In this document: positions 8,843 to 39,521 of the stretch, in pieces
How positions within the stretch are numbered: the first letter of the stretch is position 1
Layout: each line of letters begins with the position of its first letter
DNA from: Gemmatales bacterium
GTDB taxonomy: Bacteria > Planctomycetota > Planctomycetia > Gemmatales > HRBIN36
NCBI GenBank assembly: GCA_035430005.1
Contig: DAOMFV010000001.1
Coordinates: forward strand, 25,619 to 89,618
Direction of reading: 5' to 3'
DNA: 64,000 bases
The notes under the pieces: generated by a model
Databases searched by the model: none
Told to the model about the DNA's origin: nothing
Seen by the model: the letters and a program-made list of their open reading frames with translations, nothing else
Translations under genes and position numbers: made by a program

Positions 8843-8887
8843 GAGTGGAGGCGATGGGGGTCGAACCCCTAACCCCTAGCTTGCAAA
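8843..8887 (-). repeat. Remnant copy of the 3' half of tRNA-Ala(UGC) (att-like direct repeat)
   Basis: 44/45 identical to 37374-37418 in the same orientation. It covers the anticodon loop through the discriminator plus 3 nt. The single mismatch breaks a T-stem pair. Confidence 0.85.
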
Positions 8888-8976
8888 TCTAACAAGGGCC
8901 TGTTTGGAAACGCCTTATTTCCAGGCCAATTTGAGTATAACTGCCGATTCGGCTAGAATTTGTGGCTGCTATGCAT

Positions 8977-9016
8977 GTTGCATCGTGTTGCATTCATATT
9001 GCATTATGTTGTGCAA
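8977..9016 (+). promoter_or_regulatory. Helically phased direct repeats GTTGCAT / GTTGCAT / ATTGCAT / GTTGtGCAA
   Basis: Units start at 8977, 8987, 8998 and 9008 (periods of 10, 11 and 10 bp). They lie about 90 nt from the tRNA remnant and about 300 nt upstream of mgtA. Confidence 0.4.
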
Positions 9017-9309
9017 CATGCGTCCCTATTGCGCCCCCGGATTAGAGAACTGTCGCTCTCCACTCGGAACGATTTCTGGCACCGCATGCGCTATCACGTT
9101 TGCCAATTGAGTGGAACAATTCACTGCAGCCCGCCATGCCTGGTTCTGAAACATCAACAATCCTGCGCTGATTCGTGATCGATGCATTAGATTAGCTTAG
9201 GAAGTGGTAGCGTATGAGATGTTAGTAGATACAAGAGAAACTGCAGTCTTTTAGAAAACAAGAAGCGGATTCATTTTACCTGACGAAGGCATACACCAAC
9301 GGATTGTTC

Positions 9310-11937
9310 ATGAAACACCCGCCTACATTACCGAAGAGATTGCCGCCTCGAGACAGAGGCTTGTCTTCGGGCATCCTCGCTTCCTTGCTCATCGAAGTCG
9401 GAAAGGAAGAGCTTCAGGCAACTTTCTCTCGGCTGAATACCTCGCAACAAGGGTTATCTCAGAATGAGGTCAGGCAACGGCAGACTAAATATGGACCCAA
9501 TGTTGTGGCTCAGGGGGACCGGCATCCTATCATTCGGTTGCTTCGCAACAGCCTGCTCAATCCGCTCGTGATTCTGCTGATCATTCTGGCAGGTGCTTCT
9601 TTGCTGACTGGCGACGTCAAGGCCGCAGTAGTGATGCTAGCGATGGTGGTTCTTGGCGTAGCATTGCGGCTCGCACAGGAAGTACGGGCAGACGCTGCTG
9701 CTGCCAGGTTGCGAGCCATGATCAGCGTCCGTGCCATGGTGATGCGTGAGGGACAATCGCAGGAAGTGCCTATCAGTCAACTGGTGCCGGGTGATATTGT
9801 TCAGTTGGCTGCAGGCGACATGATCCCTGCTGATGTCAGACTTATCAGTTGTAAAGATCTCTTCTTGATGCAGGCCAGCTTAACGGGAGAGACATTCCCG
9901 GTGGAGAAGCATGCCAGCGTCATCCAGTCGAAAGGGTTGTCTGTCCTGGAGTTGAGCAACATCTGTTATCTGGGTACGAGTGTTGAAAGCGGCTCAGCCA
10001 CCGCCTTGGTGCTGACCACGGGGTTAGACACGTATCTGGGGAGCATGTCCACCGCCATCGCCGAGCAACCCGCGCCGACCAGTTTTGATCGTGGCGTTTC
10101 CTCATTTACCTGGCTGATGATCCGGATGATGCTGGTGATGGTCCCCCTGGTATTTGTCATCAATGGACTGACCAAAGGGGATTGGAAAGAGGCGTTTCTT
10201 TTCTCGCTGGCGGTAGCAGTCGGATTGACGCCGGAGATGCTGCCGATGATCATCGCCGTTTGCCTCTCGAAAGGGGCGATGGCGATGTCCAGAAAGAAAG
10301 TCATCGTTAAACGATTGAATTCAATCCAAAACCTCGGCGCGATGGACATTCTCTGCACCGATAAGACCGGCACACTGACAATGGATCAGATCATTTTGGA
10401 GAAGCACTGTGATGTTGTGCTTCGTGAAGATCAGGAAGTACTGATCCTGGCTTATTTGAACAGTCACTTCCAAACAGGCTTGAAGAATGTGATGGATCGA
10501 GCCATCCTGCAGCATTCAGAACTGAAAGAGCATCTGAACCTGCCGGGCTATTCCAAGGTAGACGAGATACCTTTCGATTTTGTCCGTCGGGTCATGTCGG
10601 TCGTGGTCGAGACGCCTGAGCATTTGCATCGGCTCATCTGCAAAGGGGCGCCTGAGGAAATCTATCATCGGTGCAGCGGCTTCCTGGTGGATGGAGAGAC
10701 GTTGCCAATGGATCACATGATCATGACCGATCTCAAGGAAGAGTTCGAGCAGTTGTGCTCTAACGGTTTTCGGGTCCTCGCCCTGGCCTATCGTGATTTT
10801 TCCCCTAAGCAGGCTTACGACAAGAATGACGAACATGATTTGATTCTTCGTGGCTATGTCGCCTTTCTGGACCCGCCCAAGGACAGCGCCAGGACCGCGC
10901 TGGAAGCTTTTCAAATGAACAGCATCGCCATCAAAGTGCTGACCGGCGACAACGAACTGGTGGGCAAGAAAATCTGTAAAGAAGTGGGACTAAACACTGA
11001 GAACACTTTGCTCGGTAGCCAGGTAGAATCGATGTCCGATACAGAGTTGCAGCGACGGGCGAATGAAACCACGCTGTTTGCTCGTGTCTCGCCTGCCCAT
11101 AAGAGGCGCATCATCCAATTGCTTCAGCAACAGGGACACGTGGTAGGGTTCCTGGGCGATGGCATTAATGATGCCCCCGCTCTGCGTGCCGCCGACGTTG
11201 GTATCTCCGTGGATACCGCTGTTGATATCGCCAAGGAATCAGCGGACGCCATCCTCCTTGAAAAAGACCTGAATGTCGTGAACGAAGGCGTTCTTGAAGG
11301 CCGCAAGGTGTTCGCTAATATCCTGAAGTACGTGCGCATGGGCGCCAGTTCCAACTTCGGCAACATGTTGAGCGTGCTTGGAGCCAGCGTGTTCCTTCCC
11401 TTCGTGCCCATGTTGCCCCTGCAAATACTACTCAACAATCTGCTCTATGATTTCTCGCAGGTTCCCATTCCTACTGACCAGGTGGACGCTGAGTTGGTCA
11501 CCAAGCCTCGCCCGTGGTCGATGAACGCCATTTTCAAGTACATCGTCATTCTCGGACCGATCAGCTCCATCTTCGATTACCTTACCTATTTCATGCTGCT
11601 CTACTTCTTCGGTTGCTGGGACCCCGCCCGGGCGTCGCTCTTCCAGACGGGATGGTTCCTCGAATCGCTCTTAACACAAACGCTGATTATTCATGTCATC
11701 CGAACCAATCGTATCCCGTTCCTGCAAAGCATGGCTAGCTGGCCACTCTTGTTCATGACCATAGTCATCCTCAGCATCGGTATTTCCCTGCCCTACTCTC
11801 CACTGGCCAGTGCGCTGGGTTTTTTTCCCATGCCGTGGAGTTACTGGGGTATGGTGATCCCCCTGGTGCTGGGTTATCTCGCTCTGACCCAGATCATTAA
11901 GACATGGATGCTCCGCCGTGGCTGGATTTCAACATAA
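9310..11937 (+). CDS. mgtA: Magnesium-translocating P-type ATPase
   Basis: Contains TGETFPVEK, CTDKTGTLT, VLTGDN and GDGINDAPALRAADVGISV, plus the MgtA-typical C-terminal block LLNNLLYDFSQVPIPTDQVD...GPISSIFDYLTY. The ATG is at 9310, with an in-frame TTG at 9304. Confidence 0.9.
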   Translation: MKHPPTLPKRLPPRDRGLSSGILASLLIEVGKEELQATFSRLNTSQQGLSQNEVRQRQTKYGPNVVAQGDRHPIIRLLRNSLLNPLVILLIILAGASLLTGDVKAAVVMLAMVVLGVALRLAQEVRADAAAARLRAMISVRAMVMREGQSQEVPISQLVPGDIVQLAAGDMIPADVRLISCKDLFLMQASLTGETFPVEKHASVIQSKGLSVLELSNICYLGTSVESGSATALVLTTGLDTYLGSMSTAIAEQPAPTSFDRGVSSFTWLMIRMMLVMVPLVFVINGLTKGDWKEAFLFSLAVAVGLTPEMLPMIIAVCLSKGAMAMSRKKVIVKRLNSIQNLGAMDILCTDKTGTLTMDQIILEKHCDVVLREDQEVLILAYLNSHFQTGLKNVMDRAILQHSELKEHLNLPGYSKVDEIPFDFVRRVMSVVVETPEHLHRLICKGAPEEIYHRCSGFLVDGETLPMDHMIMTDLKEEFEQLCSNGFRVLALAYRDFSPKQAYDKNDEHDLILRGYVAFLDPPKDSARTALEAFQMNSIAIKVLTGDNELVGKKICKEVGLNTENTLLGSQVESMSDTELQRRANETTLFARVSPAHKRRIIQLLQQQGHVVGFLGDGINDAPALRAADVGISVDTAVDIAKESADAILLEKDLNVVNEGVLEGRKVFANILKYVRMGASSNFGNMLSVLGASVFLPFVPMLPLQILLNNLLYDFSQVPIPTDQVDAELVTKPRPWSMNAIFKYIVILGPISSIFDYLTYFMLLYFFGCWDPARASLFQTGWFLESLLTQTLIIHVIRTNRIPFLQSMASWPLLFMTIVILSIGISLPYSPLASALGFFPMPWSYWGMVIPLVLGYLALTQIIKTWMLRRGWIST

Positions 11938-12019
11938 CACCGATGCTGCTTGCATCATGTGAGGAAATTCACCACAATGGGCAGGCAGGTTCTTCACCAT
12001 CACCGTTTTATTACATCAC

Positions 12020-12487
12020 ATGGATATCCTTGCCATACTACGATCCGCGACACTGCTGCAAGGCATTTCGGAGAGCCACCTTCAGAAGCTGGCGGCGTCC
12101 GCAGTTGCGCAGCATTATCCAGCAGGCACTACCCTGTTTCACGAAAATGCAGCTCATCATACCTTCTACCTTCTAGTGGAAGGCAGCGTAGCGCTGGATA
12201 TCCACATCCCACGACGAGCCCCCAGGCGTGTGTTGAGCGTAGGCCGAGGAGAGATTCTGGCATGGTCCGCCATCCTTGGTAATGGCGTGATGACCACCTC
12301 TGCCATCACGACTGCTCCCACAAGTGTAATCGCCTGGCCCGCACAAAAATTGCTCGCACTCTGCCAGGCCGATCATGAGATAGGCTTCTTGGTGATGCAG
12401 CGCATTGCTCAAGCCCTTTCCCGCCGACTGACTGCTACTCGCCTGCAACTGCTCGATATGTTTGCAGAGAATGAACCTGCCCGGTGA
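12020..12487 (+). CDS. Stand-alone cyclic-nucleotide-binding-domain protein
   Basis: The product shows a cNMP-binding beta-barrel pattern (LLQGISESHLQKLA...FHENAAHHTFYLLVEGSVAL...GRGEILAWSAIL) and has no DNA-binding domain. It lies immediately upstream of the hydrogenase genes. Confidence 0.7.
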   Translation: MDILAILRSATLLQGISESHLQKLAASAVAQHYPAGTTLFHENAAHHTFYLLVEGSVALDIHIPRRAPRRVLSVGRGEILAWSAILGNGVMTTSAITTAPTSVIAWPAQKLLALCQADHEIGFLVMQRIAQALSRRLTATRLQLLDMFAENEPAR

Positions 12488-12497
12488 CAACACTGCG

Positions 12498-13631
12498 ATG
12501 AAACCGCTGTTCCTTGCTAAAGATGAACTTGCGTCGCTGATCGATGTGCTGATCACACAGGGTTACACGGTTGTTGGTCCCACGATCAGCCAGGGCGCAA
12601 TCGTTTACGATGAGATTCATCGACTTGAACAGTTACCTCGGGGTTGGACTGATGAGCAGCATCCGGGCAAGTATCGGCTTAATAAGGGGGACGATAACGC
12701 GTACTTTGGATACGTCGTCGGGCCGCACTCGTGGAAGAAGTATCTCTTTCCGCCCCAAACAAAGATAGGTTCAGCCACAAGGGTCGAATTGGGTTGGAAG
12801 CTGGAGACTTCCAGGCCGGCACCGAAGAAGTTGGCGCTGTTGGGCACGCGTGCCTGCGAGCTGGCAGCACTGGCAGTGCAGGATCGGGTCTTTCTCGGTG
12901 GCCCTTACATTGATCCCTACTACCAGGCCCAACGGCAGAATCTGTTACTCATTGCTGTCAATTGTACCCAGGCTGCCTCCACCTGTTTCTGCACATCGAT
13001 GAACACCGGCCCACGTTGCACCACCGGTTATGATTTGGCACTGACCGAGTTGAGTGATGGCTTCATTGTCGAAGCTGGTACTCCGTCTGGGGAATCCATT
13101 GTTGGAAAACTTGTTATAAGTGAAGCGACCCCGAAGCAATTACAGCAAGGCGACGAGGCCAGGGCACAGGCTGAGAAGCAGATCACGAGACACATGGACA
13201 CCGAAGGAGTCCGTGATCTGCTGCTGAACAACCCAAATCATCCGCGATGGCAAGAAGTCGCCCAGCGGTGTCTTTCCTGTGCCAACTGCACGATGGTATG
13301 CCCTACCTGTTTCTGTTCCACTGTCAGTGAAGTGTCAGATCTGCAGGGCGATCATGTCGATCGTGTTCGTCACTGGGATTCCTGCTTTAACGTGGAGTTC
13401 AGCTATACCAATGGCGGAACGGTGCGTAAGACCATCCACGACCGATATCGTCAGTGGATGACTCATAAGTTGGCCAGCTGGCATGATCAGTTTGGCTCTT
13501 CCGGCTGTGTGGGCTGTGGACGTTGCATCACCTGGTGTCCCGTGGGAATCGATATTACGGAAGAGGTTGCCGCTATCCGCCAGTCGATTCCACTGCCGAT
13601 GGTGAGTACTAAGGGAGGCCCATCTCCATGA
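12498..13631 (+). CDS. hyhB: Group 3b [NiFe]-hydrogenase beta subunit (AsrA-like 4Fe-4S protein)
   Basis: Two ferredoxin-type clusters are present ([16 protein letters not shown] and [15 protein letters not shown]). The ATGA overlap with the next gene indicates translational coupling. The start at 12498 avoids overlap with the upstream gene. Confidence 0.8.
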
Positions 13632-14458
13632 CGCTTCCCACTGAACCCTGGCTGCCCCTCTCAGCCCAACTCATCAATATCACGCCCGAGATCGTCGGTG
13701 TTGCAACCTATGACTTTGTATTGGAAGGGGCGACTCAGCCGTTTCAATATGCAGTTGGCCAGTTCAATATGCTCTACATCCCCGGCGTCGGGGAGGTTGC
13801 CATCTCGCTGAGTGGCGTAACAGGCCAGGTACTGCACCACACCATCCGGGAAGCGGGCAATGTCACTCATGCCATCGCTCAATTGAAGCTAGGCATGTCG
13901 ATTGGCCTGCGAGGGCCTTTCGGAACAGCATGGCCCTTGGATCAGTGCGTTGGCAAGGATATTGTGCTGGCTGCAGGGGGCATTGGACTCGCTCCAGTTC
14001 GACCCATCATCCATGCAGTGCTGTGCGATCCAAAACGTTTCGGGAAGCTGACGGTGCTGCATGGCGCCAGGAGCCCCAGCGGTCTGCTCTATACCGGAGA
14101 ATATGACCTCTGGCGGAATCAAGGCCTTCAAGTCGAAGTGATCGTTGATCGTGCTGATACCAATTGGCATGAACAAGTTGGCGTTATTACGCAGTTGTTG
14201 GATCGACTTCCACTTACTCGTCCGACAGAAACCATCTTGATGACCTGTGGCCCGGAGGTCATGATGCACTTCGTCGCCCGGTCAGCAATATCACGAGGTA
14301 TTGCTGAGCAGCAGATATGGCTTTCACTGGAACGTCATATGAATTGTGCTATCGGCCATTGTGGTCACTGCCAACTGGGGTCGGCGTTCGTCTGCAAGGA
14401 TGGTCCTGTGTTCCGCTATGATCGCATCAGACAATTCCTTGCTGTGGAGGGACTCTGA
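13628..14458 (+). CDS. hyhG: Group 3b [NiFe]-hydrogenase gamma subunit (FAD/NAD(P)-binding, 2Fe-2S; AsrB/PyrK-like)
   Basis: Shows a ferredoxin-reductase-type fold ([15 protein letters not shown]) and a C-terminal cluster motif [23 protein letters not shown]. Both its start and stop overlap the neighbouring genes. Confidence 0.8.
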
Positions 14459-15270
14459 TGAGCAGCCTTTCGAATGGCAAGCTTACGCTCGCTGTCTTCA
14501 AGTTTGCTTCCTGCGATGGTTGCCAGTTGTCTCTACTGGATTGTGAAGATGAACTGCTGACCGTTGCAGGCCTTGTGGAAATCGCTTACTTCCTCGAAGC
14601 CAGCAGCACCACTGTGGAAGGGCCATACGATGTCACTCTGGTGGAAGGCTCCATCACCACCCCCCACGATCAGCAGCGCATTCAAGAGATCCGCAGACAG
14701 TCGAAGGTCCTCATCACCATCGGCGCTTGTGCTACCTCAGGAGGCATCCAGGCATTGCGTAACTGGGGCGACCACCAGGAGTTTCTGCGTGCCGTCTATG
14801 CCCGCCCTGATTACATCTCCAGCCTGGCTACATCCACTGCCATCAGTGACCACGTCAAAGTCGAGTATGAACTGCGTGGCTGCCCGATCAATCGTCATCA
14901 ACTCATAGAGGTGATTCGCACGTTGGTGACAGGCAGTAAGCCACGGTTGCCGTCACACAGTGTCTGTATGGAGTGCAAGCTGCGTGGCACAGTTTGCGTT
15001 GCTGTGGTCCAAGGCGTTCCCTGCCTTGGGCCCATCACTCAGGTTGGCTGTGGCGCGATCTGCCCTGCTTATGATCGTGGCTGTTACACGTGTTTCGGTC
15101 CCGCACATCAGGCGAATGCTCAAAGCCTGACCACCTATTACCAATCGCAAGGTAACAGTGGTGATGACCTGCTCCCCCTGCTCCGCAATTACAATGCATT
15201 TGCTCCTGCATTTCGTGAAGCGAGCAGCAAGATCGATGGCAAGATTCCTCTTCACCTGGCAGGTACATGA
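14458..15270 (+). CDS. hyhS: [NiFe]-hydrogenase small (delta) subunit
   Basis: It resembles the NuoB/20-kDa family: [33 protein letters not shown], plus distal Cys clusters ([26 protein letters not shown]). Confidence 0.88.
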
Positions 15271-29939: not shown

Positions 29940-30092
29940 CAGCCATTGACGGCACATTAGCAGTTACCAGCTTGGAAAGATTCTTTCCGAATCGCCTACG
30001 ATCCGAACCGATCACGCAGTCTGGCTCTTGCTTTTACATGTGATTTAATGCTGTATCGATGGTCATTTGATTCATTTCGACCATGCGGTAAT

Positions 30093-30108
30093 TGGCATGA
30101 CAACTGCT
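30093..30108 (+). promoter_or_regulatory. Sigma-54-type promoter (TGGCATgacaaCTGCT)
   Basis: GG-N10-GC spacing is exact. The -12 GC lies 42 nt upstream of the ATG at 30149. Both elements are identical to those of the 28738 site. Confidence 0.65.
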
Positions 30109-30148
30109 TTTCCTGTGTTGGATTCAAACCAGATCAAAGGACTCGTCC

Positions 30149-30478: not shown

Positions 30479-30511
30479 CTGAACCCGTAATTACCCAGGA
30501 CAGGTGCAGAC

Positions 30512-30736
30512 ATGTTAAAGCAATCGACTCCTCTTCTGATTCAGCTTTCATACCTCCAACAGAACATGAGGGAGCAATTGCGATTCCAGATTCAGAATCT
30601 CCGACTGGAGTTGCGTAACAACGAGATCGTCCTGCTCGGCCGTGCCAGGTCGTACTATCACAAGCAGCTTGCCCAGGAGCTGGTGATCAAGAGAAACTAT
30701 GCCGAGAAATTGGCAAATGAGATTCTGGTAACGTAA
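30512..30736 (+). CDS. Small BON-like domain protein
   Basis: LRLELRNNEIVLLGRARSYYHKQLAQELV...LANEILV fits the BON pattern (x-V-x-V-x-G-x-V-x-L-x-G-x-V...N-x-I-x-V). The gene is 33 nt downstream of the DksA-like gene. Confidence 0.45.
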   Translation: MLKQSTPLLIQLSYLQQNMREQLRFQIQNLRLELRNNEIVLLGRARSYYHKQLAQELVIKRNYAEKLANEILVT

Positions 30737-30744
30737 TCAACTGA

Positions 30745-31059
30745 TCAATAACGAGTTACATCTTGTCTAATCCCCGGCTGAATCGCAACAGGTTTACTGA
30801 TCTTGCTGGGAGGCTGATCATGGTTGCTATGATTATTTCGCTTGTCTAGGAGCATTCGGGCATTGACTTCATCCCAGGCACTCACCATTCCTCGGATTTC
30901 GAGGATACCCGTGAAACCGGCCTGATGCTCTCCTTCAAGCAGGCACTGAATCCCTTCAGATTCCGGCATGTTCTTGAGGATTTCTGCCTCGGCAAATTGG
31001 TTCGTGGAAAAGGCGATGACCGGTTCGTTCTTCACTGCGAGTCTCCTTAGCGGATTCAT
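30745..31059 (-). CDS. DUF2007-like small signal-transduction-fold protein
   Basis: VIAFSTNQFAEAEILKNMPESEGIQCLLEGEH...LEIRGMVSAWDEVNARMLL resembles the DUF2007 pattern. It is the last gene of the minus-strand stress operon. Confidence 0.4.
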   Translation of the reverse strand: MNPLRRLAVKNEPVIAFSTNQFAEAEILKNMPESEGIQCLLEGEHQAGFTGILEIRGMVSAWDEVNARMLLDKRNNHSNHDQPPSKISKPVAIQPGIRQDVTRY

Positions 31060-31610
31060 GTTTTGGATAAGGCCTTAAGCAGTTCTTCAGTCTTCGCTCT
31101 TCCGCCATGGCCCTTGCTTACGAGCGAGAAGGTGACAACGCCCTTGGTATTCACGCCAAAGGTTGCAGGGAAGACCGTTTCATTAGGAGCGGCCCAGCGT
31201 AAGCCATACTTAGCCGCAAAGCCGTAATCCGGGTCGGTGACAAGCCGAAAGTTGTTGGGCAGCATTTTGTCAGCAAGAAATTCACGTGCATGCTCGTCCA
31301 ATTTGCCCGCGGCACCAGGATAGATCAGGAGCACAGTTGCTCCGGCATCCATAAAACTGCTCGATTTACTAATCAAGTCAGCGACCTGTTTTTGGCATAT
31401 TTCACTTTGTGCTCCAGGGTAGCCTCGCAGAACAATGATGGCGACAGGACCTTTTTCATACAGAAGTGACAACTTAACCGAAGAGCCATCCAGCGTCTTG
31501 AGCTCAAAATCCTGAGCAGTTTCCCCGGTCAAGGGCGATTTGTCCCATTCAGGAAGAGTAGCTTGCAGGAAAAGCAGCCCGAGAACAAGCGATATGTGTG
31601 ACAAAGTCAT
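31056..31610 (-). CDS. Secreted redoxin/peroxiredoxin-like (AhpC/TSA family) protein
   Basis: The N-terminus is signal-like (MTLSHISLVLGLLFLQA). The thioredoxin-fold block is FELKTLDG...GPVAIIVLRGYPGAQSEICQKQV. The alternative start at 31637 would overlap the upstream gene by 11 nt and has no RBS. Confidence 0.6.
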   Translation of the reverse strand: MTLSHISLVLGLLFLQATLPEWDKSPLTGETAQDFELKTLDGSSVKLSLLYEKGPVAIIVLRGYPGAQSEICQKQVADLISKSSSFMDAGATVLLIYPGAAGKLDEHAREFLADKMLPNNFRLVTDPDYGFAAKYGLRWAAPNETVFPATFGVNTKGVVTFSLVSKGHGGRAKTEELLKALSKT

Positions 31611-31626
31611 GTACAAGATGCACCTC

Positions 31627-32739
31627 TCATGATCCATTTTTCTTGCGCATTGCCATGGCAGTGCGCACTCGTTCCGTTGCTAGGTCAACCGCAGCCTGGC
31701 GGGGTGAGATTCGTTCATCCCGTGAACGTGTAAAGACAGATCGGGTATTATCTCGGATTCGCTGCGCAATCATGTCGAATGCCAAAGACTGGGTGCCACC
31801 ATGAAATTCGACGGAAGCACAAATGACACCGCCTGCGTTAGCGATAAAATCGGGTACGACAAATACGCCTCGTTCCCGTAGAGTCGTTTCAGCAGCATGG
31901 GTAGCCGGGATATTGGCTCCTTGAAGAATCAGTTTCGCCTTGATCGACGCAACATTCCTTTCATTTATGCAGTCAGGCTTGGCTGCGGGGATCAAAATGT
32001 CGCAAGCTACGCCAAAGAGGTCCTTTGCCTCCATCTTCTTGCCGCCTGCGTAACTGGTAACCGTTCCAGTACGGTCCTTGGTCTGTATCAGTTTCTCGAT
32101 ATCGATGCCCTGGGCATCGTACACGGCACCCTTGCTATCGCTTGCTGCTACCAACCTCACCCCTAGCTCAGCAAGAAACTGCGCAGCGGGCCGTCCAACG
32201 TTGCCGAAACCTTCGATGCCGAGTGTTGCCCCTTTGAGCTTGAGCCCGGCAAATTCAGAAGCGACTTCCGCGCAACGTGCCAGTCCATAACCAGTCGCTC
32301 CAATCTTATCCAGAGGTATGCCACCCAGTACACTGGGAAGACCGACTGATCGGCCAATCTCATCCCAGATCAACCCCATGCACGTTTCATCGGTGCCCAT
32401 ATCAGGACCGGGAATGTAACTCGTTAACTCACGAATGCTACGAGCAAAGCTACGGACCAAGCTGGCTTTGTTCTTGCCCTTCGGATCGGCGATTAAGCCT
32501 GCCTTCCCTCCTCCGTGGGGCAACCCTGCGGCTGCATTTTTAAGTGTCATGGCCCGTGCCAGCCGATAGACTTCATCCACACTGACATCCACCGCCATCC
32601 GTACGCCCCCGATGGCAGGACCGCATGCGGTGTTGTCGATCACTACAAATCCCCGCATTTCCGTGTGAGGATCAAAAAGATGCACAATCTTCTCAGGACC
32701 AAGCACATCATAATATCTATCTAAGGCGGTCGTTGACAT
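31627..32739 (-). CDS. Glu/Leu/Phe/Val-family amino-acid dehydrogenase
   Basis: Contains the catalytic-Lys block AAAGLPHGGGKAGLIADP and the Rossmann motif GIEGFGNVGRPAA. The ATG at 32739 is preceded by GGAGA. The longer ORF start at 32910 overlaps the upstream gene. Confidence 0.85.
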   Translation of the reverse strand: MSTTALDRYYDVLGPEKIVHLFDPHTEMRGFVVIDNTACGPAIGGVRMAVDVSVDEVYRLARAMTLKNAAAGLPHGGGKAGLIADPKGKNKASLVRSFARSIRELTSYIPGPDMGTDETCMGLIWDEIGRSVGLPSVLGGIPLDKIGATGYGLARCAEVASEFAGLKLKGATLGIEGFGNVGRPAAQFLAELGVRLVAASDSKGAVYDAQGIDIEKLIQTKDRTGTVTSYAGGKKMEAKDLFGVACDILIPAAKPDCINERNVASIKAKLILQGANIPATHAAETTLRERGVFVVPDFIANAGGVICASVEFHGGTQSLAFDMIAQRIRDNTRSVFTRSRDERISPRQAAVDLATERVRTAMAMRKKNGS

Positions 32740-32780
32740 ATTGTCTCCAGAACACTTCACCGTGGCTCCCGGTCGAATGA

Positions 32781-33635
32781 TCAATGATAAAGGAACAGAG
32801 GCACTGGACTTTCCTTCAGCAGAGTGCGAGTAACCGATCCAAACAAGAAATCCCTGAGCTTGCCGTGACCGAAAACTCCCATCACGAGGATGGAAGGATC
32901 GCAAAGCCATGTCTGCTTGATAATGGCTTGAGCCGGATGATCCTTGCAGACCACGGCATGCACCATGAAGGGGCGATCATGCCAGGTGAGGAAATCGGCG
33001 GCTTGTTGAGCATGTTTTTCAGCCTCGCTATGGCTGGTTGCGATACTGACGATATGCACCTTCTTATCCTTGTCGATCCCTGAAGCTTCGAATGCTTGCA
33101 GCGCTCGCGCCGCTTCTGGGCTGCCATCGTAAGCCACCATAACACACTTGCTCTCTCGAATGCTGTTGGGAACAGTCACAACTGGCCTGGAGCAAAATCG
33201 TGCTACTTCTTTAAGCGTGGCATCCAGTTCTTCCGAGGAACCTCGATGGAAAAAGGTACGTCGCCCGAGCATCACCAGGTCGAAGCGCTGGGCCTGTGTC
33301 GTCAGTCGCTCAGCTGGTACGCCCAGGTCTTCCAGTAGCTTGCATGGCACCTGTCGCTCTGCACATTGAAGTGTGAACTGCTGAAGATATCGTTCCACAC
33401 GCCGCTGATCTTCGTGAAACAAACGTTGGTCCAGGCCGGACGCCTCAGCCAGTGGATCAAAGGGGGGCAGTCCTGGAACCATTTGGCTGGGCAAACGAGT
33501 TACCACTGCGGGCTCATCGACAATACCGATGCCCACCAGCATCGCATCAAGTTGTTTGGCCCAAAGCAAGCCAAGTTCCACGGCAGCATGGCTGAATGGA
33601 GAACCGTCCAGTCCTATGAGTATGCTCTTGACCAT
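32781..33635 (-). CDS. Tandem universal stress protein (two UspA domains)
   Basis: There are two USP units. The first is SILIGLDGS...LVMLGRR. The second is CVMVAYDGSPEA...ILVMGVFGHGKLRDFLFGSVTRTLLKESPVPLFLYH, carrying the ATP-binding G-x2-G-x9-G(S/T) motif. The start is ambiguous (33635 or 33710). Confidence 0.85.
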   Translation of the reverse strand: MVKSILIGLDGSPFSHAAVELGLLWAKQLDAMLVGIGIVDEPAVVTRLPSQMVPGLPPFDPLAEASGLDQRLFHEDQRRVERYLQQFTLQCAERQVPCKLLEDLGVPAERLTTQAQRFDLVMLGRRTFFHRGSSEELDATLKEVARFCSRPVVTVPNSIRESKCVMVAYDGSPEAARALQAFEASGIDKDKKVHIVSIATSHSEAEKHAQQAADFLTWHDRPFMVHAVVCKDHPAQAIIKQTWLCDPSILVMGVFGHGKLRDFLFGSVTRTLLKESPVPLFLYH

Positions 33636-33731
33636 TTCAGCCTCATCAAAGATCCGAAGAAAAGAATCCTCGGCAGCCTGACAGGTGCGATGAGCCATTT
33701 CGCCTGCCAAGGATTCAAAGTCGCCACCGTC

Positions 33732-34205
33732 TCACTTGGTTGACTGGATGGCAATGGGCTTGCCCCGAGCCGTCTCCACCTTGGGGATAGCCACCGTTAG
33801 CAAGCCGTTTTGGAACTTGGCCTCTGCCTTGTCCATGATGCATCCCTCAGGCAACGTGATCGAACGAAAGAGCGAAGAACGGCGTTCTTCCGAGCATTCC
33901 TTATCCTTCACTTCTGATTTGTGCTCTGCCTTCAGCACCAACTCGTTGCCTACCTGCTTCAAATCGATCTCTTTGGCATCGAACCCGGGTGCCTCGAATC
34001 GGGCAATCACCGAGTTGTCCTTCTCTTCCAAGTCCACGCCCCAGGAGGGCTTTTCGTTGTCGAAGAACGACACATCGCCGAAGAACCGCTGGAAGACTCG
34101 ATCCATCTCCTGACGAAACTGATTGAAGACAGGGAACCCGCTCCACTTCGCCAGTGAACCATTGCCGTTCAACTGTTGGGTCTTGCTGGGAATCATGCTA
34201 CTCAT
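33732..34205 (-). CDS. Hsp20/alpha-crystallin small heat-shock protein
   Basis: The alpha-crystallin core is VIARFEAPGFDAKEIDLKQVGNELVLKAEHK...FRSITLPEG...AKFQNGLLTVAIPK. Confidence 0.92.
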   Translation of the reverse strand: MSSMIPSKTQQLNGNGSLAKWSGFPVFNQFRQEMDRVFQRFFGDVSFFDNEKPSWGVDLEEKDNSVIARFEAPGFDAKEIDLKQVGNELVLKAEHKSEVKDKECSEERRSSLFRSITLPEGCIMDKAEAKFQNGLLTVAIPKVETARGKPIAIQSTK

Positions 34206-34266
34206 GGTCTTAGCTCCTTGTGATCAGGGTTTAGGTAAAGTGAAACTGTTGATATGGCGTGCGACA

Positions 34267-34719
34267 TCATCCCTTTACGTTTGACTCTGGGGACAATGGC
34301 ACAATAAGGACAGGGCAAGGAGCCCGCCGCAATACGTGGTCGGCTACGCTGCCAAGAAATAATCGCTTGAATCCAGTACGGCCATAAGTGCCCATCACGA
34401 TTAGATCAGCATGACAGGACTGTGCCTTGCTCACAATCGTTTCAACGGGTGTGCCCTCGATGAACATATCCTCGATCTTAAGACCAGACTTGCTTTCCAG
34501 TATTTGCCGAAGTTTCCGCCGTACATCCTCTTCTGAGACCATCTCATGAGGAATAACAGGAAGATCGCCTGTGCTGAGAGCTTCTATCATGTAGGCATGC
34601 AAGACCACGATCGTGGCGTTAGCTGACTCAGCGATTTGACAAGCCAGTTTCAACGCTTGCTCTGCATTAGGCGAGAAATCGGTCGGGTGCAAAATGATCT
34701 TTGGCGGCCAGGTTGTCAT
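34267..34719 (-). CDS. Universal stress protein (single UspA domain)
   Basis: Contains ILHPTDFS...LIVMGTYGRTGFKRLFLGSVADHVLRRAPCPVLIV. Confidence 0.9.
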   Translation of the reverse strand: MTTWPPKIILHPTDFSPNAEQALKLACQIAESANATIVVLHAYMIEALSTGDLPVIPHEMVSEEDVRRKLRQILESKSGLKIEDMFIEGTPVETIVSKAQSCHADLIVMGTYGRTGFKRLFLGSVADHVLRRAPCPVLIVPLSPESNVKG

Positions 34720-34754
34720 GGTTTAACTCGCAGCAGGTTAACGTGATGACTCAT

Positions 34755-34770
34755 TGCAGACCGAGTGCCA
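34755..34770 (-). promoter_or_regulatory. Sigma-54-type promoter (minus strand TGGCACtcggtCTGCA)
   Basis: GG-N10-GC spacing is exact. The -12 GC lies 37 nt upstream of the usp start codon at 34719. Confidence 0.65.
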
Positions 34771-34952
34771 AAGCTTAAAAATACGTCGGGAGTAGCCACC
34801 GTGCTGAATGGCAATTCAGATGTGTGAGAAGTCGAAATGCCTGCCGTCGAGAAAACTATTTGCTGGAAGTTAATTGCTTTCCATCATGGATAGAAACTTA
34901 CCGGCACAAGTCGGCTTCTCCGATAAAAACACTAGTAGATGGTATTCATGCA

Positions 34953-34968
34953 CGGCACGGAAACTGCC
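34953..34968 (+). promoter_or_regulatory. Sigma-54-type promoter (cGGCACggaaaCTGCC)
   Basis: GGCACG-N4-CTGC with exact spacing. The -12 GC lies 43 nt upstream of the ATG at 35010. Confidence 0.55.
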
Positions 34969-35009
34969 TTCTGGTAAGTAGGGAGGAACACCGAACTGGA
35001 GCACACATC

Positions 35010-35525
35010 ATGCCTGCCACATTACTTGGACAACCACTAGTTCTCTCTTCCGGCACTGTCGATATGGCCATGTCAGACAACCCTGTCTCCGTCTCTGATA
35101 TTGAGACAGCACAAGGCGTGGCTCAAGTGCTCATCGAGCATCGCATCAGCGCTGTCCCGATCATTAATGAAGCTGGGCATCCCGTAGGAGTTATCAGCCG
35201 TACAGACCTGGTCAATCACCTGGTGCAACTTCAGAGTCACGTTCGCACCCTGGAAGAGGACTGGTTTGAATGTGGGAATATCGTTGATGAAGAAATCATA
35301 AGGAGTCAACCCTGTCGGGCGGGTTCCTGGAGCAAGATCACCGCCAAAGCAATCATGAATACAAGATTGTTCACAGTTACACCTGAAGATTCTCTTGAGA
35401 TAGCTGTCGAACTCATATTGAAACACCACGTTCATCGGCTCTTCGTCGTTGATCATGACGGTGTTCTTGTTGGCATTATCAGTACCTTCGATATCCTAAA
35501 CCGACTTGAACGACGTTTCGAGTAG
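35010..35525 (+). CDS. CBS-domain pair protein
   Basis: There are two CBS units (VAQVLIEHRISAVPIINEAGHPVGVISRTDL and AVELILKHHVHRLFVVDHDGVLVGIISTFDIL). The ATG at 35010 has GGAG 9 nt upstream. The ORF part upstream of it has no domain content. Confidence 0.8.
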   Translation: MPATLLGQPLVLSSGTVDMAMSDNPVSVSDIETAQGVAQVLIEHRISAVPIINEAGHPVGVISRTDLVNHLVQLQSHVRTLEEDWFECGNIVDEEIIRSQPCRAGSWSKITAKAIMNTRLFTVTPEDSLEIAVELILKHHVHRLFVVDHDGVLVGIISTFDILNRLERRFE

Positions 35526-35712
35526 GGCTTTAAGCCATGAGCAGCATTGGATCGGCCAAGAAGTCCTGCGTTCTGGGGTAACCATGACACCAACGACTCC
35601 TTTGACTCACCCTGTGCTCATTGCAGTGGCCTGGTATCGCTCATGTGGGTATTAATGCTGGATTCTACATGATGTCCAAGTTGGGCATGTCCCTATCAAT
35701 GCCTAGAGCCTG

Positions 35713-36069
35713 TTATTGACTTCGGAAGGCAGCTTGTTTGATAATGATGGTGAGGAAGGCAAGCCAGTGCCACCCTTCGAGAACTTTGGCCAGTCGTTCG
35801 TAGTCGCGGGCCAAGTGTCTAAAACGGGCGAGCCAGCCAAAGGTACGTTCCACCACCCAGCGTCGTGGTAACAGCACAAAACCCTTCTTGGCTTCCGTGT
35901 GTTTAACGACTTCCAGACGGATGCCATGCTGACTGGCTTGTTGAGTTGCATCTTCACCGGTGTATCCTTGATCCACATAGGCCAGCGTCACTGTACCACC
36001 AGTGGCCTCTTGCACCTGGGACGCCAATTCAGCCACTTGGGCTCGCTCTTGTTCGTTAGCTGCTGTCAC
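35713..36069 (-). pseudogene. IS5-family DDE transposase, C-terminal fragment only
   Basis: Contains YVDQGYTG (second Asp region) and LLPRRWVVERTFGWLARFRHLARDYE (Glu region). The N-terminal half with the first catalytic Asp is absent and no terminal inverted repeats were identified. Confidence 0.75.
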
Positions 36070-36159
36070 CTTTAAAGCCAGCAGATTTGCCGAGAAGCTA
36101 TTTCACTCCCTGCTGATTTCTGGACATCAGCTACAAGCGGCACTACGCTCCCGTCATGC

Positions 36160-37218
36160 TCATTCATCTTCTACGACAGTTTTCTTAGGCACATAGTCAA
36201 TTGTTGTTCGATCCATGCAAAACCAATCGTTGATGGCCTCCTCTTCGTAGTTAAACACGATTGTTTTCCTCTTGGCATTTTGAGCAAATAAATGGAACTT
36301 GAGATTAAACCCATATCTGAGATTTGGCCGCACTCCACTACGTCCATCAATGCTTTGAAATTGAAGCCCTTGTGTTTCGAGTCTCTTATTCTTTACCGAA
36401 AACTCGATCTCGGCTTCTGGATGCAAAGGGCGACTCAAGTAAGCATGCGCTTTTCCTTGTAGCATTGCAAGTTGAGCATGAACAACAGCATCTAGCCTAA
36501 ATCCTGACTCTGAATGGGAATTCACGAGATTGACAGGGGCATTGGATTCCAAAACAACAAGTATCTCGTGTGCCGTTGCCGTCCCCTTGTTCTGAAGAAC
36601 TAAGATCATCGAAAACTCTACCGAGGCATCGCTTTTCACTCGCATGACTGTGTTCTGTATCAAGTCAAGATCAACCTTGGTAAACGGATAGAACATTTGT
36701 TTCAGCATCGAATGCGGAATTACCTTGCATGACTCGCCAGCACGCATGACATAGGTTTTGGCCGATCCAGGAAATTCTCTGCGGTGTGGCCGATGTGGAC
36801 TGAGAGGAACATAGCAAACCAACACACCCTTATCTGGGCCAGCGGTTTCAATCGGTAAGTATCGGACACCTTGAACGGGTGGATCGTTGGCAACGTGAAT
36901 CTGCTTAGTCAGAATGGCTTGCAGTTCGGACAGTGATTGAACTGGTACAACTTCGCCAGGGGTGTCTCTGGAAGTTGTACGAATACCGACAATGAGCAGT
37001 CCGCCTTCGGTGTTGGCAAAAGCTGATAAGTATTCTGACCATGCTTCCTGAATCTTGTCTCTGTCGAACTCCGTTGCGTTTTTCATCCAGCATTGTTTGT
37101 AATCAATCCATTCGTGTTCCGATGGCTTGTGTTCCAAGACGTAGGCAATTTGCTCCGCACCTGTATTGAGTTGGTTAAGTTGGCTGAAAAACGATTCAAC
37201 ACGGGATGGAAGGGCCAT
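36160..37218 (-). CDS. Schlafen/AlbA_2-like putative DNA/RNA-binding domain protein with uncharacterised C-terminal half
   Basis: The N-terminal EHEWIDYKQ...LSAFANTEGGLLIVGI...GVLVCYVPLSPHRP...TYVMRAGESCKVIPHSMLKQMF follows the AlbA_2 (PF04326-type) pattern. The gene is visibly AT-rich compared with its neighbours. Confidence 0.55.
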   Translation of the reverse strand: MALPSRVESFFSQLNQLNTGAEQIAYVLEHKPSEHEWIDYKQCWMKNATEFDRDKIQEAWSEYLSAFANTEGGLLIVGIRTTSRDTPGEVVPVQSLSELQAILTKQIHVANDPPVQGVRYLPIETAGPDKGVLVCYVPLSPHRPHRREFPGSAKTYVMRAGESCKVIPHSMLKQMFYPFTKVDLDLIQNTVMRVKSDASVEFSMILVLQNKGTATAHEILVVLESNAPVNLVNSHSESGFRLDAVVHAQLAMLQGKAHAYLSRPLHPEAEIEFSVKNKRLETQGLQFQSIDGRSGVRPNLRYGFNLKFHLFAQNAKRKTIVFNYEEEAINDWFCMDRTTIDYVPKKTVVEDE

Positions 37219-37376
37219 AAATCGGTATTCCTATCGACGATCAAAAGGCAGCTACAAACCCCTCAATTCTTGGAACTGCCATCCATTTTGTCCTAAATTT
37301 TCTTAGGGCAAAACCCTACGCAATTGTCCTAATATCAGAAAGTACAGAATACCCTAGAAATGCAGTCGTATTTGAG

Positions 37377-37449
37377 TGGAGGCGAGGGGGGTCGAACCCC
37401 TAACCCCTAGCTTGCAAAGCTAGTGCTCTCCCAGTTGAGCTACGCCCCC
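37377..37449 (-). tRNA. tRNA-Ala (anticodon UGC)
   Basis: A hand-folded cloverleaf: acceptor GGGGGCG/CGCCTCC with the G3:U70 alanine identity pair, anticodon loop TTTGCAA, T-loop GGTTCGACC, discriminator A. CCA is not encoded. Confidence 0.93.
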
Positions 37450-39520: not shown

Positions 39521-39521
39521 G

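What the first reader, a model, noticed from the sequence alone, without database searches (positions are those of the whole stretch)
8843..37449. A 45-nt direct repeat of the tRNA-Ala 3' half brackets 28.6 kb: candidate tRNA-targeted genomic island carrying a hydrogenase and a stress regulon
Seen: 8843-8887 (gagtggaggcgaTgggggtcgaacccctaacccctagcttgcaaa) matches 37374-37418 at 44/45 positions in the same orientation. The latter is the 3' end of the intact minus-strand tRNA-Ala(UGC), from 3 nt beyond the discriminator up to the anticodon loop. The one difference would break a T-stem base pair, as expected for a decaying remnant.

Established: phage, ICE and island integrases that target the 3' half of tRNA genes leave exactly this pattern, with an intact tRNA at one end and a partial 3' copy at the other.

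The bracketed block holds mgtA, a full group 3b hydrogenase plus hyp set, ppsA, a sigma-54 two-component system, stress genes, an IS5 remnant and a low-GC AlbA_2 gene. Housekeeping genes lie outside it.

Caveats: I recognise no integrase, excisionase or transfer gene. Composition is host-like in the hydrogenase part (hand count 34/60 GC in 15301-15360). It is deviant only near the tRNA end (21/60 and 26/60 GC in 36241-36300 and 36301-36360). The island is therefore probably old, immobilised or mosaic.
Basis: partly seen in the sequence, partly recalled or inferred. Interest (0 to 1): 0.75.

Follow-up and report, generated by a model that had tools for sequence, protein, structure and literature searches.

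The report
Decayed genomic island at tRNA-Ala
About 30 kb of DNA (a hydrogenase with its maturation genes, stress-response genes and a magnesium pump) sits exactly at the end of a tRNA-Ala gene in a Gemmatales planctomycete. It carries the classic scar of an integrating mobile element and is missing from that spot in the closest relative, so it is a textbook-type genomic island that has lost its integrase and is not a new kind of system.

Summary
8843-8887 matches 37374-37418, the 3' half of the intact minus-strand tRNA-Ala(UGC), at 44/45 positions in direct orientation. It is the only such pair in the window.

Two new results support the island reading.
- In the closest relative with a long contig (GCA_047602475.1), the window's two flanks are contiguous. 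tRNA-Ile and tRNA-Ala are followed after 52 nt by the SDR gene. The window therefore has 30,186 extra bases (7189-37374), starting at the tRNA-Ala 3' end.
- The fragment is followed on its inner side by about 160 nt of non-coding DNA. This DNA recurs, joined to the same tRNA fragment at the same nucleotide, in two unrelated metagenome contigs. It looks like the conserved attachment-site arm of an element family.

- The acyl-CoA ligase is also extra DNA, although it lies outside the repeat.
- No integrase exists anywhere in the window.
- 23.7 kb of the interior (hydrogenase, hyp, ppsA, sigma-54 system, stress genes) is collinear with chromosomal clusters at other loci in related Gemmatales.
- The right junction of that block is a PAC2 pseudogene cut off by a truncated IS5.

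The locus is an old, mosaic, non-autonomous island. It is a new member of a known kind and of modest interest.

The parts
37376..37449 (-). Intact tRNA-Ala(UGC). This is the regenerated integration target (attL-like end in tRNA orientation).
   Evidence: ARAGORN and Rfam, 67 bits. Its sequence is identical to the tRNA-Ala of relative L067.
37494..37567 (-). tRNA-Ile(GAU), upstream partner of tRNA-Ala in a stand-alone tRNA pair. It is native flank, not part of the island.
   Evidence: The same pair lies next to the MacB operon in L067.
37374..37418 (.). Repeat copy inside and just beyond tRNA-Ala, from the anticodon loop to the 3' end plus 3 nt.
8843..8887 (.). Displaced 3' fragment of tRNA-Ala (attR-like). 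It matches at 44/45; the one mismatch breaks a T-stem pair.
8888..9045 (.). Conserved non-coding arm on the inner side of the fragment. It starts with TCTAA (an imperfect copy of the anticodon-stem half-site). It contains three RTTGCAT repeats 10-11 nt apart (8977, 8987, 8998), the palindrome ATGTTGTGCAACAT, and GCGTCCCTATTGCGCCCCC.
   Evidence: It aligns with L059 and L060 from the same junction nucleotide onward, while the outer flanks are unrelated. The arm-only alignment scores 36-71, against shuffled means of 6-8 and maxima of 16-20. The motif is unique in the window and absent from 58 other loci. No Rfam family matches and no covariation is seen.
7189..37374 (.). All DNA that is extra relative to the empty site of the closest relative (30,186 nt).
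   Evidence: blastn of window against L067: 1-7188 aligns to 19052-12192, and 37375-49480 aligns to 12139-1. Junction alignment.
7254..8810 (+). Acyl-CoA ligase. It lies outside the repeat but is absent from the empty site. It is either an older acquisition or a gene lost in the relative.
   Evidence: Pfam AMP-binding. Its best relatives (up to 80% aa) are all labelled Pirellulales, Planctomycetia or Lacipirellulaceae, and none shares neighbouring genes. It is absent from L067 between tRNA-Ala and SDR.
9304..11937 (+). mgtA, a magnesium-translocating P-type ATPase. It is specific to this window and is not next to the hydrogenase block in any relative.
   Evidence: TIGR01524 equivalog, 1118 bits against a cut-off of 611. 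It is absent upstream of the block in L061, L064 and L070.
12020..22754 (+). Hydrogenase module: cNMP-binding regulator, hyhBGSL-like four-subunit NiFe hydrogenase, hycI, and hypA, B, F, C (20321-20593), D and E.
   Evidence: Pfam. NCBIfam best hits are the sulfhydrogenase alpha, beta, gamma and delta subunits. The module is collinear with L061, L064 and L070.
22780..25173 (+). ppsA (phosphoenolpyruvate synthase), at the end of the hydrogenase module.
   Evidence: NF005057 and TIGR01418 equivalogs, above 1100 bits. It is syntenic in L061 and L064.
25136..28522 (-). Sigma-54-dependent response regulator (25136-26584) and PAS hybrid histidine kinase (26600-28522).
   Evidence: Pfam. The pair is collinear in L061 (response regulator) and L065 (response regulator and kinase).
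28638..35525 (.). Stress module: baeRF family 10 protein, DksA/TraR-type zinc-finger protein, DUF2007, AhpC/redoxin, Glu/Leu-type dehydrogenase, Usp, Hsp20, Usp and a CBS-pair protein.
   Evidence: Pfam. The same order is found in L065 at 76% nt identity.
35584..35691 (+). Remnant of a PAC2-family gene: the first ~36 codons, frameshifted. It marks the right edge of the block shared with relatives.
   Evidence: Homologous to the start of the intact PAC2 gene in L065, 9761-9870.
35713..36069 (-). Truncated IS5-family transposase gene (C-terminal 118 aa only), abutting the PAC2 remnant.
   Evidence: Pfam DDE_Tnp_1. NCBIfam IS5_3, profile positions 145-257 of 258.
36160..37218 (-). AlbA_2 (Schlafen-like) gene with the lowest GC3 in the window (0.45). 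It occupies the tRNA-proximal position where an integrase normally sits.
   Evidence: Pfam PF04326. GC3. It has no homologue in any relative locus fetched.

Best explanation
This is the scar of site-specific integration into the tRNA-Ala(UGC) gene, and the DNA at that site is a ~30-kb composite genomic island that can no longer move by itself.

Mechanism, inferred from the anatomy. A circular element carried an attP whose core copied the 3' half of tRNA-Ala. It recombined with the chromosomal gene, with the crossover in or next to the 7-nt anticodon loop. The anticodon-stem arms CTAGC and GCTAG, with TCTAR on the element side, would act as the core half-sites. The element's copy now completes the working tRNA at 37376-37449. 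The original 3' half was pushed about 28.5 kb away, to 8843-8887, where it has begun to decay. The 160 nt inside the fragment are the element's attachment-site arm, with helically phased RTTGCAT repeats of the kind integrases bind.

Later changes. The integrase module expected next to the tRNA is gone. The most likely cause is the IS5-associated rearrangement that also truncated a PAC2 gene at 35691. Today the island consists of window-specific end pieces (arm plus mgtA; IS5 remnant plus AlbA_2) around a 23.7-kb hydrogenase, ppsA, sigma-54 and stress block. The ligase just outside the repeat is a further gain, or a gene lost in the relative.

What is shown and what is inferred.
- Shown: the repeat, the empty site in a relative, the conserved arm, the absence of an integrase, and the IS5/PAC2 junction.
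- Inferred: catalysis by a tyrosine integrase, the crossover position, the role of the arm, and the way the integrase was lost.
For: - The repeat is direct and unique, and runs from the anticodon loop to the 3' end plus 3 nt. This is the commonest tDNA-island signature: in Islander, 3760 of 3919 islands have a 3' fragment and 2083 have an anticodon-centred attP (PMC4383910).
- An empty site exists. In L067 the two window flanks are 52 nt apart, and the break falls within 1-2 nt of the tRNA-Ala 3' end.
- The fragment and the inner 160 nt recur in L059 and L060, joined at the identical nucleotide (...GCTTGCAAA|TCTA...). Their outer flanks and inner genes differ, and the tRNA-derived outer part has decayed independently in each.
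- The arm repeats are spaced 10-11 nt apart. L059 lacks exactly 21 nt, which is two repeat units.
- Mobile-DNA debris and the most deviant composition lie at the tRNA-proximal end: an IS5 fragment, and AlbA_2 with GC3 0.45.
- GC3 of the island genes is below that of the flanks: medians 0.575 and 0.526 against 0.641, p = 3e-4 and 4e-5.
- Independent Logan assemblies of two runs reproduce both island ends at 100% identity. They stop inside the repeat, as expected for k = 31.
Against: - There is no integrase, excisionase, conjugation or phage gene in the 64 kb.
- The outer flank of the fragment is the ligase, not the terminator and SDR seen after tRNA-Ala in L067. A single clean event does not explain everything, and no second decayed fragment is detectable between SDR and ligase (P = 0.17).
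- The 23.7-kb interior is collinear with clusters in relatives that lie at other loci without a tRNA, fragment, arm or integrase in view.
- The low GC3 of that block is also seen in the relatives.
- Only one relative shows the empty site. More distant relatives (L068, L069) have neither the tRNAs nor SDR there, so polarity rests on the att signature and not on an outgroup.
- The arm family rests on two short contigs.
- The source is a MAG contig, and the joins across the repeat are not verified by reads.
Confidence: 0.8

Rival explanations
1. Small element plus secondary translocation. Only the end pieces (arm and mgtA on one side; IS5 and AlbA_2 with a lost integrase on the other) came from the integrating element. 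The 23.7-kb hydrogenase and stress block is native Gemmatales DNA. It was moved into the element from elsewhere in the same genome by IS-mediated recombination, for example two inversions or a reciprocal exchange that carried the integrase module away.
For: - The block is collinear at 76-77% nt identity with clusters at other loci in four related genomes, with no att features.
- The right junction is a PAC2 gene cut at 35691 by a truncated IS5. This is a direct trace of a secondary rearrangement.
- Synteny blocks in this group are short, about 8 kb around MacB.
- The block's GC3 offset is intrinsic to it in all genomes.
Against: - The tRNA and the fragment remain in direct orientation. This needs zero or an even number of inversions, or an insertion.
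- The left junction (mgtA stop at 11937, homology starting at 11944) shows no IS trace.
- In the block, the window groups with GCA_046350055.1 (80% aa, against 74% to L070). In four core proteins the three lineages are equidistant at 76-77%. This hints at exchange of the block, but only if L069 and L070 come from one organism.
Confidence: 0.3
2. Tandem accretion. Two or more elements integrated successively at tRNA-Ala. The ligase is what is left of an older island whose own distal fragment has been lost, and the 28.5 kb between the repeats is the younger arrival.
For: - The ligase is absent from the empty site.
- Its relatives are in Pirellulales-labelled genomes, while the flanking genes point to Gemmatales.
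- Its codon usage fits the flanks poorly.
- Tandem arrays at tDNAs are known: 125 in Islander.
Against: - There is no second fragment in the 62 nt between SDR and ligase.
- There is no integrase for either unit.
- Loss of the ligase in the L067 lineage is an equally parsimonious explanation.
Confidence: 0.3
3. No integration took place. The fragment is a relic of a partial tRNA duplication or a truncated second tRNA-Ala gene. The 30 kb is ancestral, and the relative lost it by deletion.
For: Polarity cannot be fixed with an outgroup. No integrase is present.
Against: - In L067 the break sits at the tRNA 3' end and is followed by a terminator hairpin.
- The fragment starts exactly at the anticodon loop.
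- The same fragment-to-arm junction nucleotide recurs in three unrelated contexts. A random truncation would not reproduce that.
Confidence: 0.05
4. Assembly artefact. The MAG contig is mis-joined at the 32-nt exact repeat core. In reality the ligase side abuts a full tRNA-Ala, and the 28.5 kb is a separate or circular molecule.
For: The source is a metagenome-assembled contig. The Logan contigs break inside the repeat and so do not span it.
Against: - The alternative join would put the T-stem mismatch into the only tRNA-Ala seen here.
- Both repeat copies and everything between them lie on one contig in a consistent orientation.
- A 45-nt repeat is shorter than the k-mers of modern metagenome assemblers (my own knowledge).
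- Even under the alternative join the element would still be a tRNA-Ala-targeting element carrying an attP.
Confidence: 0.05

Closest known systems
tDNA-integrated genomic islands as defined by Islander (Hudson, Lau and Williams 2015, PMC4383910), anticodon-centred attP class
   Same: An intact tRNA gene and a displaced 3' fragment in direct orientation mark the ends. The identity block runs from the anticodon loop to the tRNA 3' end. The insertion is absent from a related genome.
   Different: There is no tyrosine integrase in the interval, which Islander requires. The extra DNA extends 1.65 kb beyond the fragment. The cargo is shared with chromosomal clusters of relatives.
Cis-mobilizable elements (CIMEs), as described in ICEberg 2.0 (PMC6323972): elements that lost their integration and transfer genes but kept attL and attR
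   Same: The locus has no recombinase or transfer genes. Both core sites are still recognisable (44/45 identity, 32 nt exact), and one arm is conserved.
   Different: The integrity of the tRNA-proximal arm is unknown: no RTTGCAT repeats occur there. No partner element with a matching integrase is known. Mobilisation is untested. CIMEs were described in Firmicutes (Bacillota), at other target genes.
Metabolic islands at tRNA or tmRNA genes, e.g. the Mesorhizobium symbiosis island at tRNA-Phe (my own knowledge) and the Dehalococcoides vcr islands at ssrA (PMC3146451, seen)
   Same: Large blocks of metabolic or fitness genes, rather than phage genes, are inserted site-specifically at a small RNA gene.
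   Different: Those elements keep an integrase, and the symbiosis island also keeps conjugation genes. Neither is present here.
Group 3b (sulfhydrogenase-type, NAD(P)-coupled) [NiFe]-hydrogenase clusters
   Same: The cluster has the four-subunit alpha, beta, gamma, delta architecture with hycI and a full hyp set. The best NCBIfam matches are to the Hyd and Shy subunits.
   Different: Scores are below the equivalog cut-offs, which are archaeal models. Here the cluster is fused into a conserved Gemmatales supra-cluster with ppsA, and in some genomes with a sigma-54 two-component system and Usp/Hsp20 genes.

Membership tests
tDNA-integrated genomic island (Islander criteria) | Intact tDNA plus a cognate fragment on the same replicon, in the correct (direct) orientation | tested here: met
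   44/45 identity, direct, unique pair, with the 3' fragment downstream of the tRNA in tRNA orientation.
tDNA-integrated genomic island (Islander criteria) | The fragment boundary falls at a canonical sublocation (anticodon loop or T-stem) | tested here: met
   The identity block begins at the first base of the anticodon loop. The same junction nucleotide is seen in L059 and L060.
tDNA-integrated genomic island (Islander criteria) | A tyrosine-recombinase integrase gene inside the interval | tested here: not met
   Pfam scans of all ORFs of at least 100 aa in and around the interval found no Phage_integrase hit. The non-coding gaps are too small to hold one.
Genomic island (general sense) | Absent from the same site in a closely related genome | tested here: met
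   In L067 (GCA_047602475.1) the flanks are contiguous, 52 nt apart.
Genomic island (general sense) | Composition or phylogeny indicating foreign origin | tested here: inconclusive
   GC3 is lower than in the flanks, but the same offset is seen for the block in relatives. The block-versus-core identity pattern is only mildly incongruent. The ligase has relatives labelled Pirellulales.
Cis-mobilizable element (CIME) | Lacks integration and transfer genes | tested here: met
Cis-mobilizable element (CIME) | Retains functional attL and attR | tested here: inconclusive
   The cores are 44/45 identical and the fragment-side arm is conserved. The tRNA-side arm has no counterpart to compare with and has no RTTGCAT repeats.
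Cis-mobilizable element (CIME) | Can be excised or transferred by a related element's recombinase | not testable with these tools
   This needs experiments or population read data.
Prophage / ICE / IME | Phage structural genes, conjugation genes, or relaxase and mobilisation genes | tested here: not met
   None found by Pfam. The core and arm motifs are absent from IMG/VR apart from two chance-level hits.
Group 3b [NiFe]-hydrogenase | Four subunits (large, small, FeS beta, FAD/NAD gamma) with a maturation protease and hyp genes | tested here: met
   Pfam. The NCBIfam best hits are sulfhydrogenase HydA/B/D/G and ShyA/B/C/D, below the equivalog cut-offs.

The most novel reading that the evidence does not exclude
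A so far undescribed family of tRNA-Ala(UGC)-targeting integrative elements exists in Planctomycetota, recognisable by the conserved 160-nt arm with phased RTTGCAT repeats. It shuttles a ~24-kb 'energy-limitation survival' supra-cluster (group 3b hydrogenase with maturation genes, ppsA, a sigma-54 two-component system, and Usp/Hsp20/CBS genes) between Gemmatales genomes. The copy in this window may still be excisable in trans by a relative's integrase.
Probability: 0.15. Interest if true: 0.55.

Novelty: new member of a known kind. Interest (0 to 1): 0.3.

Why it matters
The result shows that classic tRNA-targeted integration operates in Gemmatales (Planctomycetota). A search of the held paper library found no dedicated description of such islands for this phylum.

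It also gives a precise att core and arm that can be used to look for the still unknown integrase and for intact relatives of the element.

The result places an H2-metabolism and stress gene set in a strain-variable locus. This bears on how hydrogenases spread and get reshuffled in this phylum.

Beyond that, it is an ordinary decayed island. The mechanism is textbook, and the cargo's mode of arrival remains unresolved.

Tried and rejected
- Ligase synteny. I scanned 185,579 species genomes with the ligase. 39 planctomycete relatives were found, none with tRNA-Ala nearby and none sharing any neighbour. This said nothing about the empty site, because the ligase itself is not native flank.
- IMG/VR scans. 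Scans with the repeat core, the core-arm junction and the arm motif gave no hits.
- Degenerate arm motif in IMG/VR. It gave 2 hits, about the number I estimate by chance (2-3). In one hit (L072) the motif lies 86 nt from a tRNA-Gly 3'-half attP core beside a tyrosine integrase. However, the motif orientation relative to the core is opposite to that in the window, so I keep it only as a lead. The other hit (L071) lies upstream of terminase genes.
- AlbA_2 protein against IMG/VR: no usable locus.
- Arm as an RNA. There is no Rfam family (only a 9-bit tmRNA-like hit, caused by the tRNA-like part) and no covariation.
- A second, decayed tRNA fragment between SDR and ligase: not significant (P = 0.17; 15% of random windows score as high).
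- Composition as proof of import: weakened by the control in relatives.
- PADLOC on AlbA_2, the baeRF protein and neighbouring genes: only a weak hit to a pAgo model.
- Whether the closest relative's genome holds the hydrogenase block elsewhere: this could not be settled. Look-ups were exhausted, and the cluster look-up gave no accessions for the candidate proteins.
Full report
**Observation**

Direct reading shows that 8843-8887 and 37374-37418 are identical at 44 of 45 positions in the same orientation. A mismatch-tolerant search finds exactly these two copies, with none expected by chance. The repeat finder extends the pair to 47/49. A sensitive blastn finds no third copy in the 64 kb.

ARAGORN and Rfam place tRNA-Ala(UGC) at 37376-37449 and tRNA-Ile(GAU) at 37494-37567, both on the minus strand. 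In tRNA sense, the repeat covers the anticodon loop, the 3' strand of the anticodon stem, the variable loop, the T arm, the acceptor 3' strand and the discriminator, plus three further bases. The single difference (T at 8855) changes the T-stem 3' strand from CCCCT to CCCAT.

**Gene content**

- acyl-CoA ligase, 7254-8810
- Mg-translocating P-type ATPase, 9304-11937 (TIGR01524, 1118 bits)
- a cNMP-binding protein
- a four-subunit sulfhydrogenase-like NiFe hydrogenase
- hycI, hypABFCDE and ppsA
- a sigma-54 response regulator and a PAS kinase
- a baeRF family 10 protein, a DksA-type zinc-finger protein, DUF2007, AhpC, a Glu/Leu-type dehydrogenase, Usp, Hsp20, Usp and a CBS protein
- a 118-aa C-terminal IS5 transposase fragment
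- an AlbA_2 gene next to the tRNA

No integrase, excisionase, phage or conjugation gene occurs anywhere in the window.

**Source organism**

Exact matches to window proteins carry the NCBI names 'MAG TPA... [Gemmatales bacterium]' (HQR05199, HQR05210, HQR05222) and lie on a 104,633-nt contig. Two Logan assemblies (SRR5278466 and SRR5278468) reproduce both island ends at 100% identity. They stop inside the repeat, as expected for a k = 31 assembly at a 32-nt exact repeat.

**The empty site**

A search with the MacB-type permease from the right flank found an 86%-identical protein on a 2.37-Mb contig of another Gemmatales MAG, GCA_047602475.1. Its locus (L067) has this gene order: Tex, beta-lactamase-like gene, two large proteins, ABC ATPase, MacB, a 132-aa protein, tRNA-Ile, tRNA-Ala, then 52 nt with a terminator-like hairpin. 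After that come the SDR, pyridine-nucleotide oxidoreductase, DAHP synthase and AhpC-fusion genes that form the window's left flank.

By blastn:
- window 1-7188 aligns to L067 19052-12192 at about 84% identity;
- window 37375-49480 aligns to L067 12139-1 at 78% identity.

The window therefore contains 30,186 extra bases (7189-37374). One edge is within 1-2 nt of the tRNA-Ala 3' end and the other is at the SDR stop codon. There is one correction: the ligase is part of the extra DNA, although it lies outside the repeat.

More distant relatives keep the MacB operon but have neither the tRNAs nor SDR after it (L068 at 78% and L069 at 79% MacB identity). They cannot serve as outgroups for polarity.

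**A conserved arm**

I scanned the metagenome collection for the tRNA-Ala 3' half followed by any base other than the G that continues the anticodon stem, so that only fragments would match. This returned two short contigs.

In both contigs the tRNA-derived sequence is joined, at the same nucleotide as in the window (...GCTTGCAAA|TCTA...), to about 160 nt that align with window 8888-9045. On the other side of the fragment, and beyond the 160 nt, the three sequences are unrelated. With the tRNA part removed, the arm alignments score 36-71, against shuffled means of 6-8 and maxima of 16-20.

Features of the arm:
- It opens with TCTAA (TCTAG in L059), an imperfect copy of the anticodon-stem half-site.
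- It holds three RTTGCAT repeats 10-11 nt apart; L059 lacks exactly 21 nt there.
- It holds the palindrome ATGTTGTGCAACAT and a GC-rich box.
- It is unique in the window and absent from the other loci fetched.
- It matches no Rfam family and shows no covariation.
- The acceptor and T-stem portion of the fragment has decayed differently in each contig: one mismatch in the window, a 2-nt insertion in L059, and truncation at the T loop in L060.

An identical recombination junction in three unrelated contexts points to a site-specific recombinase. The phased repeats are what arm-type integrase sites look like (established knowledge from lambda-type attP sites). This assignment is an inference.

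**The interior is a mosaic**

Searches with HyhL and the baeRF protein, followed by contig look-ups, gave these results:
- Window 11944-26566 is collinear with GCA_046350055.1 (L061) at 77% nt identity, from the cNMP-binding gene to the sigma-54 regulator.
- L064 and L070 share the segment from the cNMP-binding gene to ppsA or to hypE, respectively.
- Window 25935-35691 is collinear with a Logan contig (L065) at 76% nt identity, from the regulator to the CBS gene.

In those genomes the clusters have different neighbours each time. No tRNA, fragment, arm or integrase is in view. In GCA_046350055.1 the cluster lies 1.6 Mb from the MacB locus.

The parts found only in this window are the ligase, the fragment, the arm and mgtA (7189-11943) and the IS5 remnant with AlbA_2 (35692-37374).

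The right edge of the shared block is a secondary junction. Window 35584-35691 is the frameshifted first ~36 codons of a PAC2-family gene that is intact in L065. It is cut at 35691, where the truncated IS5 begins. This is the region where an integrase would normally sit, so an IS5-associated deletion or exchange is the most economical explanation for its absence. That is an inference.

**Composition and phylogenetic hints**

GC3 values:

| Gene set | Median GC3 | p against flanks |
|---|---|---|
| flanking genes | 0.641 | - |
| hydrogenase module | 0.575 | 3e-4 |
| stress module | 0.526 | 4e-5 |
| AlbA_2 (single gene) | 0.45 | - |

The same block also has lower GC3 than its neighbours in the relatives, so this is not proof of recent import.

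Across 12 block proteins, the window is 80% identical to GCA_046350055.1 but 74% to L070. Across four core proteins, the three lineages are equidistant at 76-77%. This is a mild incongruence, and it assumes that L069 and L070 come from one organism.

The ligase's relatives (up to 80% aa) are all labelled Pirellulales, Planctomycetia or Lacipirellulaceae, and they share no neighbours with the window. This suggests a separate horizontal origin. No decayed second fragment lies between SDR and the ligase.

**Interpretation**

The best-supported reading has three steps (confidence about 0.8).
1. A tRNA-Ala-targeting integrative element recombined with the tRNA gene at the anticodon loop.
2. This regenerated the tRNA and displaced its native 3' half.
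3. The locus has since become a composite ~30-kb island that cannot move on its own.

Whether the hydrogenase and stress block arrived with the element or was moved into it later is open. I put it at roughly even odds, slightly favouring arrival as cargo because the att sites remain in direct orientation.

The ligase is either an older accretion or a gene lost in the relative.

The readings 'partial tRNA duplication' and 'assembly chimera' are each unlikely, at about 0.05.

**Comparison with known systems**

The locus meets the tDNA-plus-fragment, orientation, sublocation and empty-site criteria of tDNA islands (PMC4383910). It fails the integrase criterion. [quoted passage not shown] The integrity of the tRNA-side arm and any mobilisation are untested. 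It is not a prophage, ICE or IME.

A search of the paper library returned no dedicated description of tRNA-integrated islands in Planctomycetes.

**Verdict**

The locus is a real, correctly observed and correctly interpreted feature, but it is of a well-known kind. The new elements are the host phylum, the defined core and arm, and the placement of a conserved Gemmatales hydrogenase and stress supra-cluster in a strain-variable tRNA locus.

Noticed in passing
window 11944-35691; L061, L064, L065, L070: A conserved Gemmatales supra-cluster links four gene sets in one order: a cNMP-binding regulator, a group 3b-type hydrogenase with its full maturation set, and ppsA. In some genomes a sigma-54 response regulator with PAS kinase and a baeRF, DksA-like, DUF2007, AhpC, GDH, Usp, Hsp20, Usp and CBS set follow. 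The content resembles hypoxia and dormancy regulons. The cluster sits at a different locus in each genome.
   Followed up: partly
window 35584-35691: A PAC2-family pseudogene stub (about 36 codons, frameshifted) is cut off by a truncated IS5. The intact gene follows the CBS gene in L065.
   Followed up: yes
window 7254-8810: The closest relatives of the acyl-CoA ligase (up to 80% aa, 78% nt) are in genomes labelled Pirellulales, Lacipirellulaceae or Bythopirellula, with no shared neighbours. The surrounding genes point to Gemmatales. The ligase was probably acquired horizontally on its own.
   Followed up: partly
window 37494-37567 and 37376-37449; L067 11949-12138: tRNA-Ile(GAU) and tRNA-Ala(UGC) form a stand-alone pair, 44 nt apart, next to a MacB-type efflux operon. 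They are not inside a 16S-23S spacer. The arrangement is shared with L067 but not with the more distant L068 and L069.
   Followed up: partly
window 660-739, 58655-58729 and 52437-52460: These are related GC-rich palindromic intergenic elements, e.g. ATACCAGCCCGCAGCGCTAGCAAGGGA paired with its complement (27-nt perfect arms), and GGTAGCCCGACGCGC(G/A)AGCGAGGG. They look like a REP-like repeat family or shared terminators.
   Followed up: no
L072 6100-6280 (IMGVR_UViG_3300021431_000015): This is a phage attP-like region. A tRNA-Gly(UCC) 3'-half core lies next to a tyrosine integrase gene (4961-6079, +). The sequence GCATGTTGCATCGTGTTGCAAC lies 86 nt away, in the arm distal to the integrase gene. 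It resembles the window's arm repeats but in the opposite orientation, and the match is at chance level for the size of the collection.
   Followed up: partly
window 37714-38148: An ORF of 132-144 aa with no Pfam match lies between MacB and tRNA-Ile. It is conserved in L067 (89% aa) and L068 (66% aa), so it is a real gene of unknown function.
   Followed up: no
window 36160-37218: The AlbA_2 (Schlafen-like) protein has only a weak PADLOC match, to the N-terminal region of a pAgo-associated model (E = 1.4e-4). It has the lowest GC3 in the window and no homologue in any related locus. It may be a defence-type gene that arrived with mobile DNA.
   Followed up: partly
L059 (Ga0075017_100305375) and L060 (WBZX01054273.1): In the two other carriers of the fragment and arm, the DNA beyond the arm differs. 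L059 has a hemerythrin-like gene with an internal stop, reading towards the arm. L060 has a DUF2293-like ORF (my reading of the sequence; not run against Pfam) on the outer side of the fragment. The cargo next to the arm is therefore variable.
   Followed up: partly
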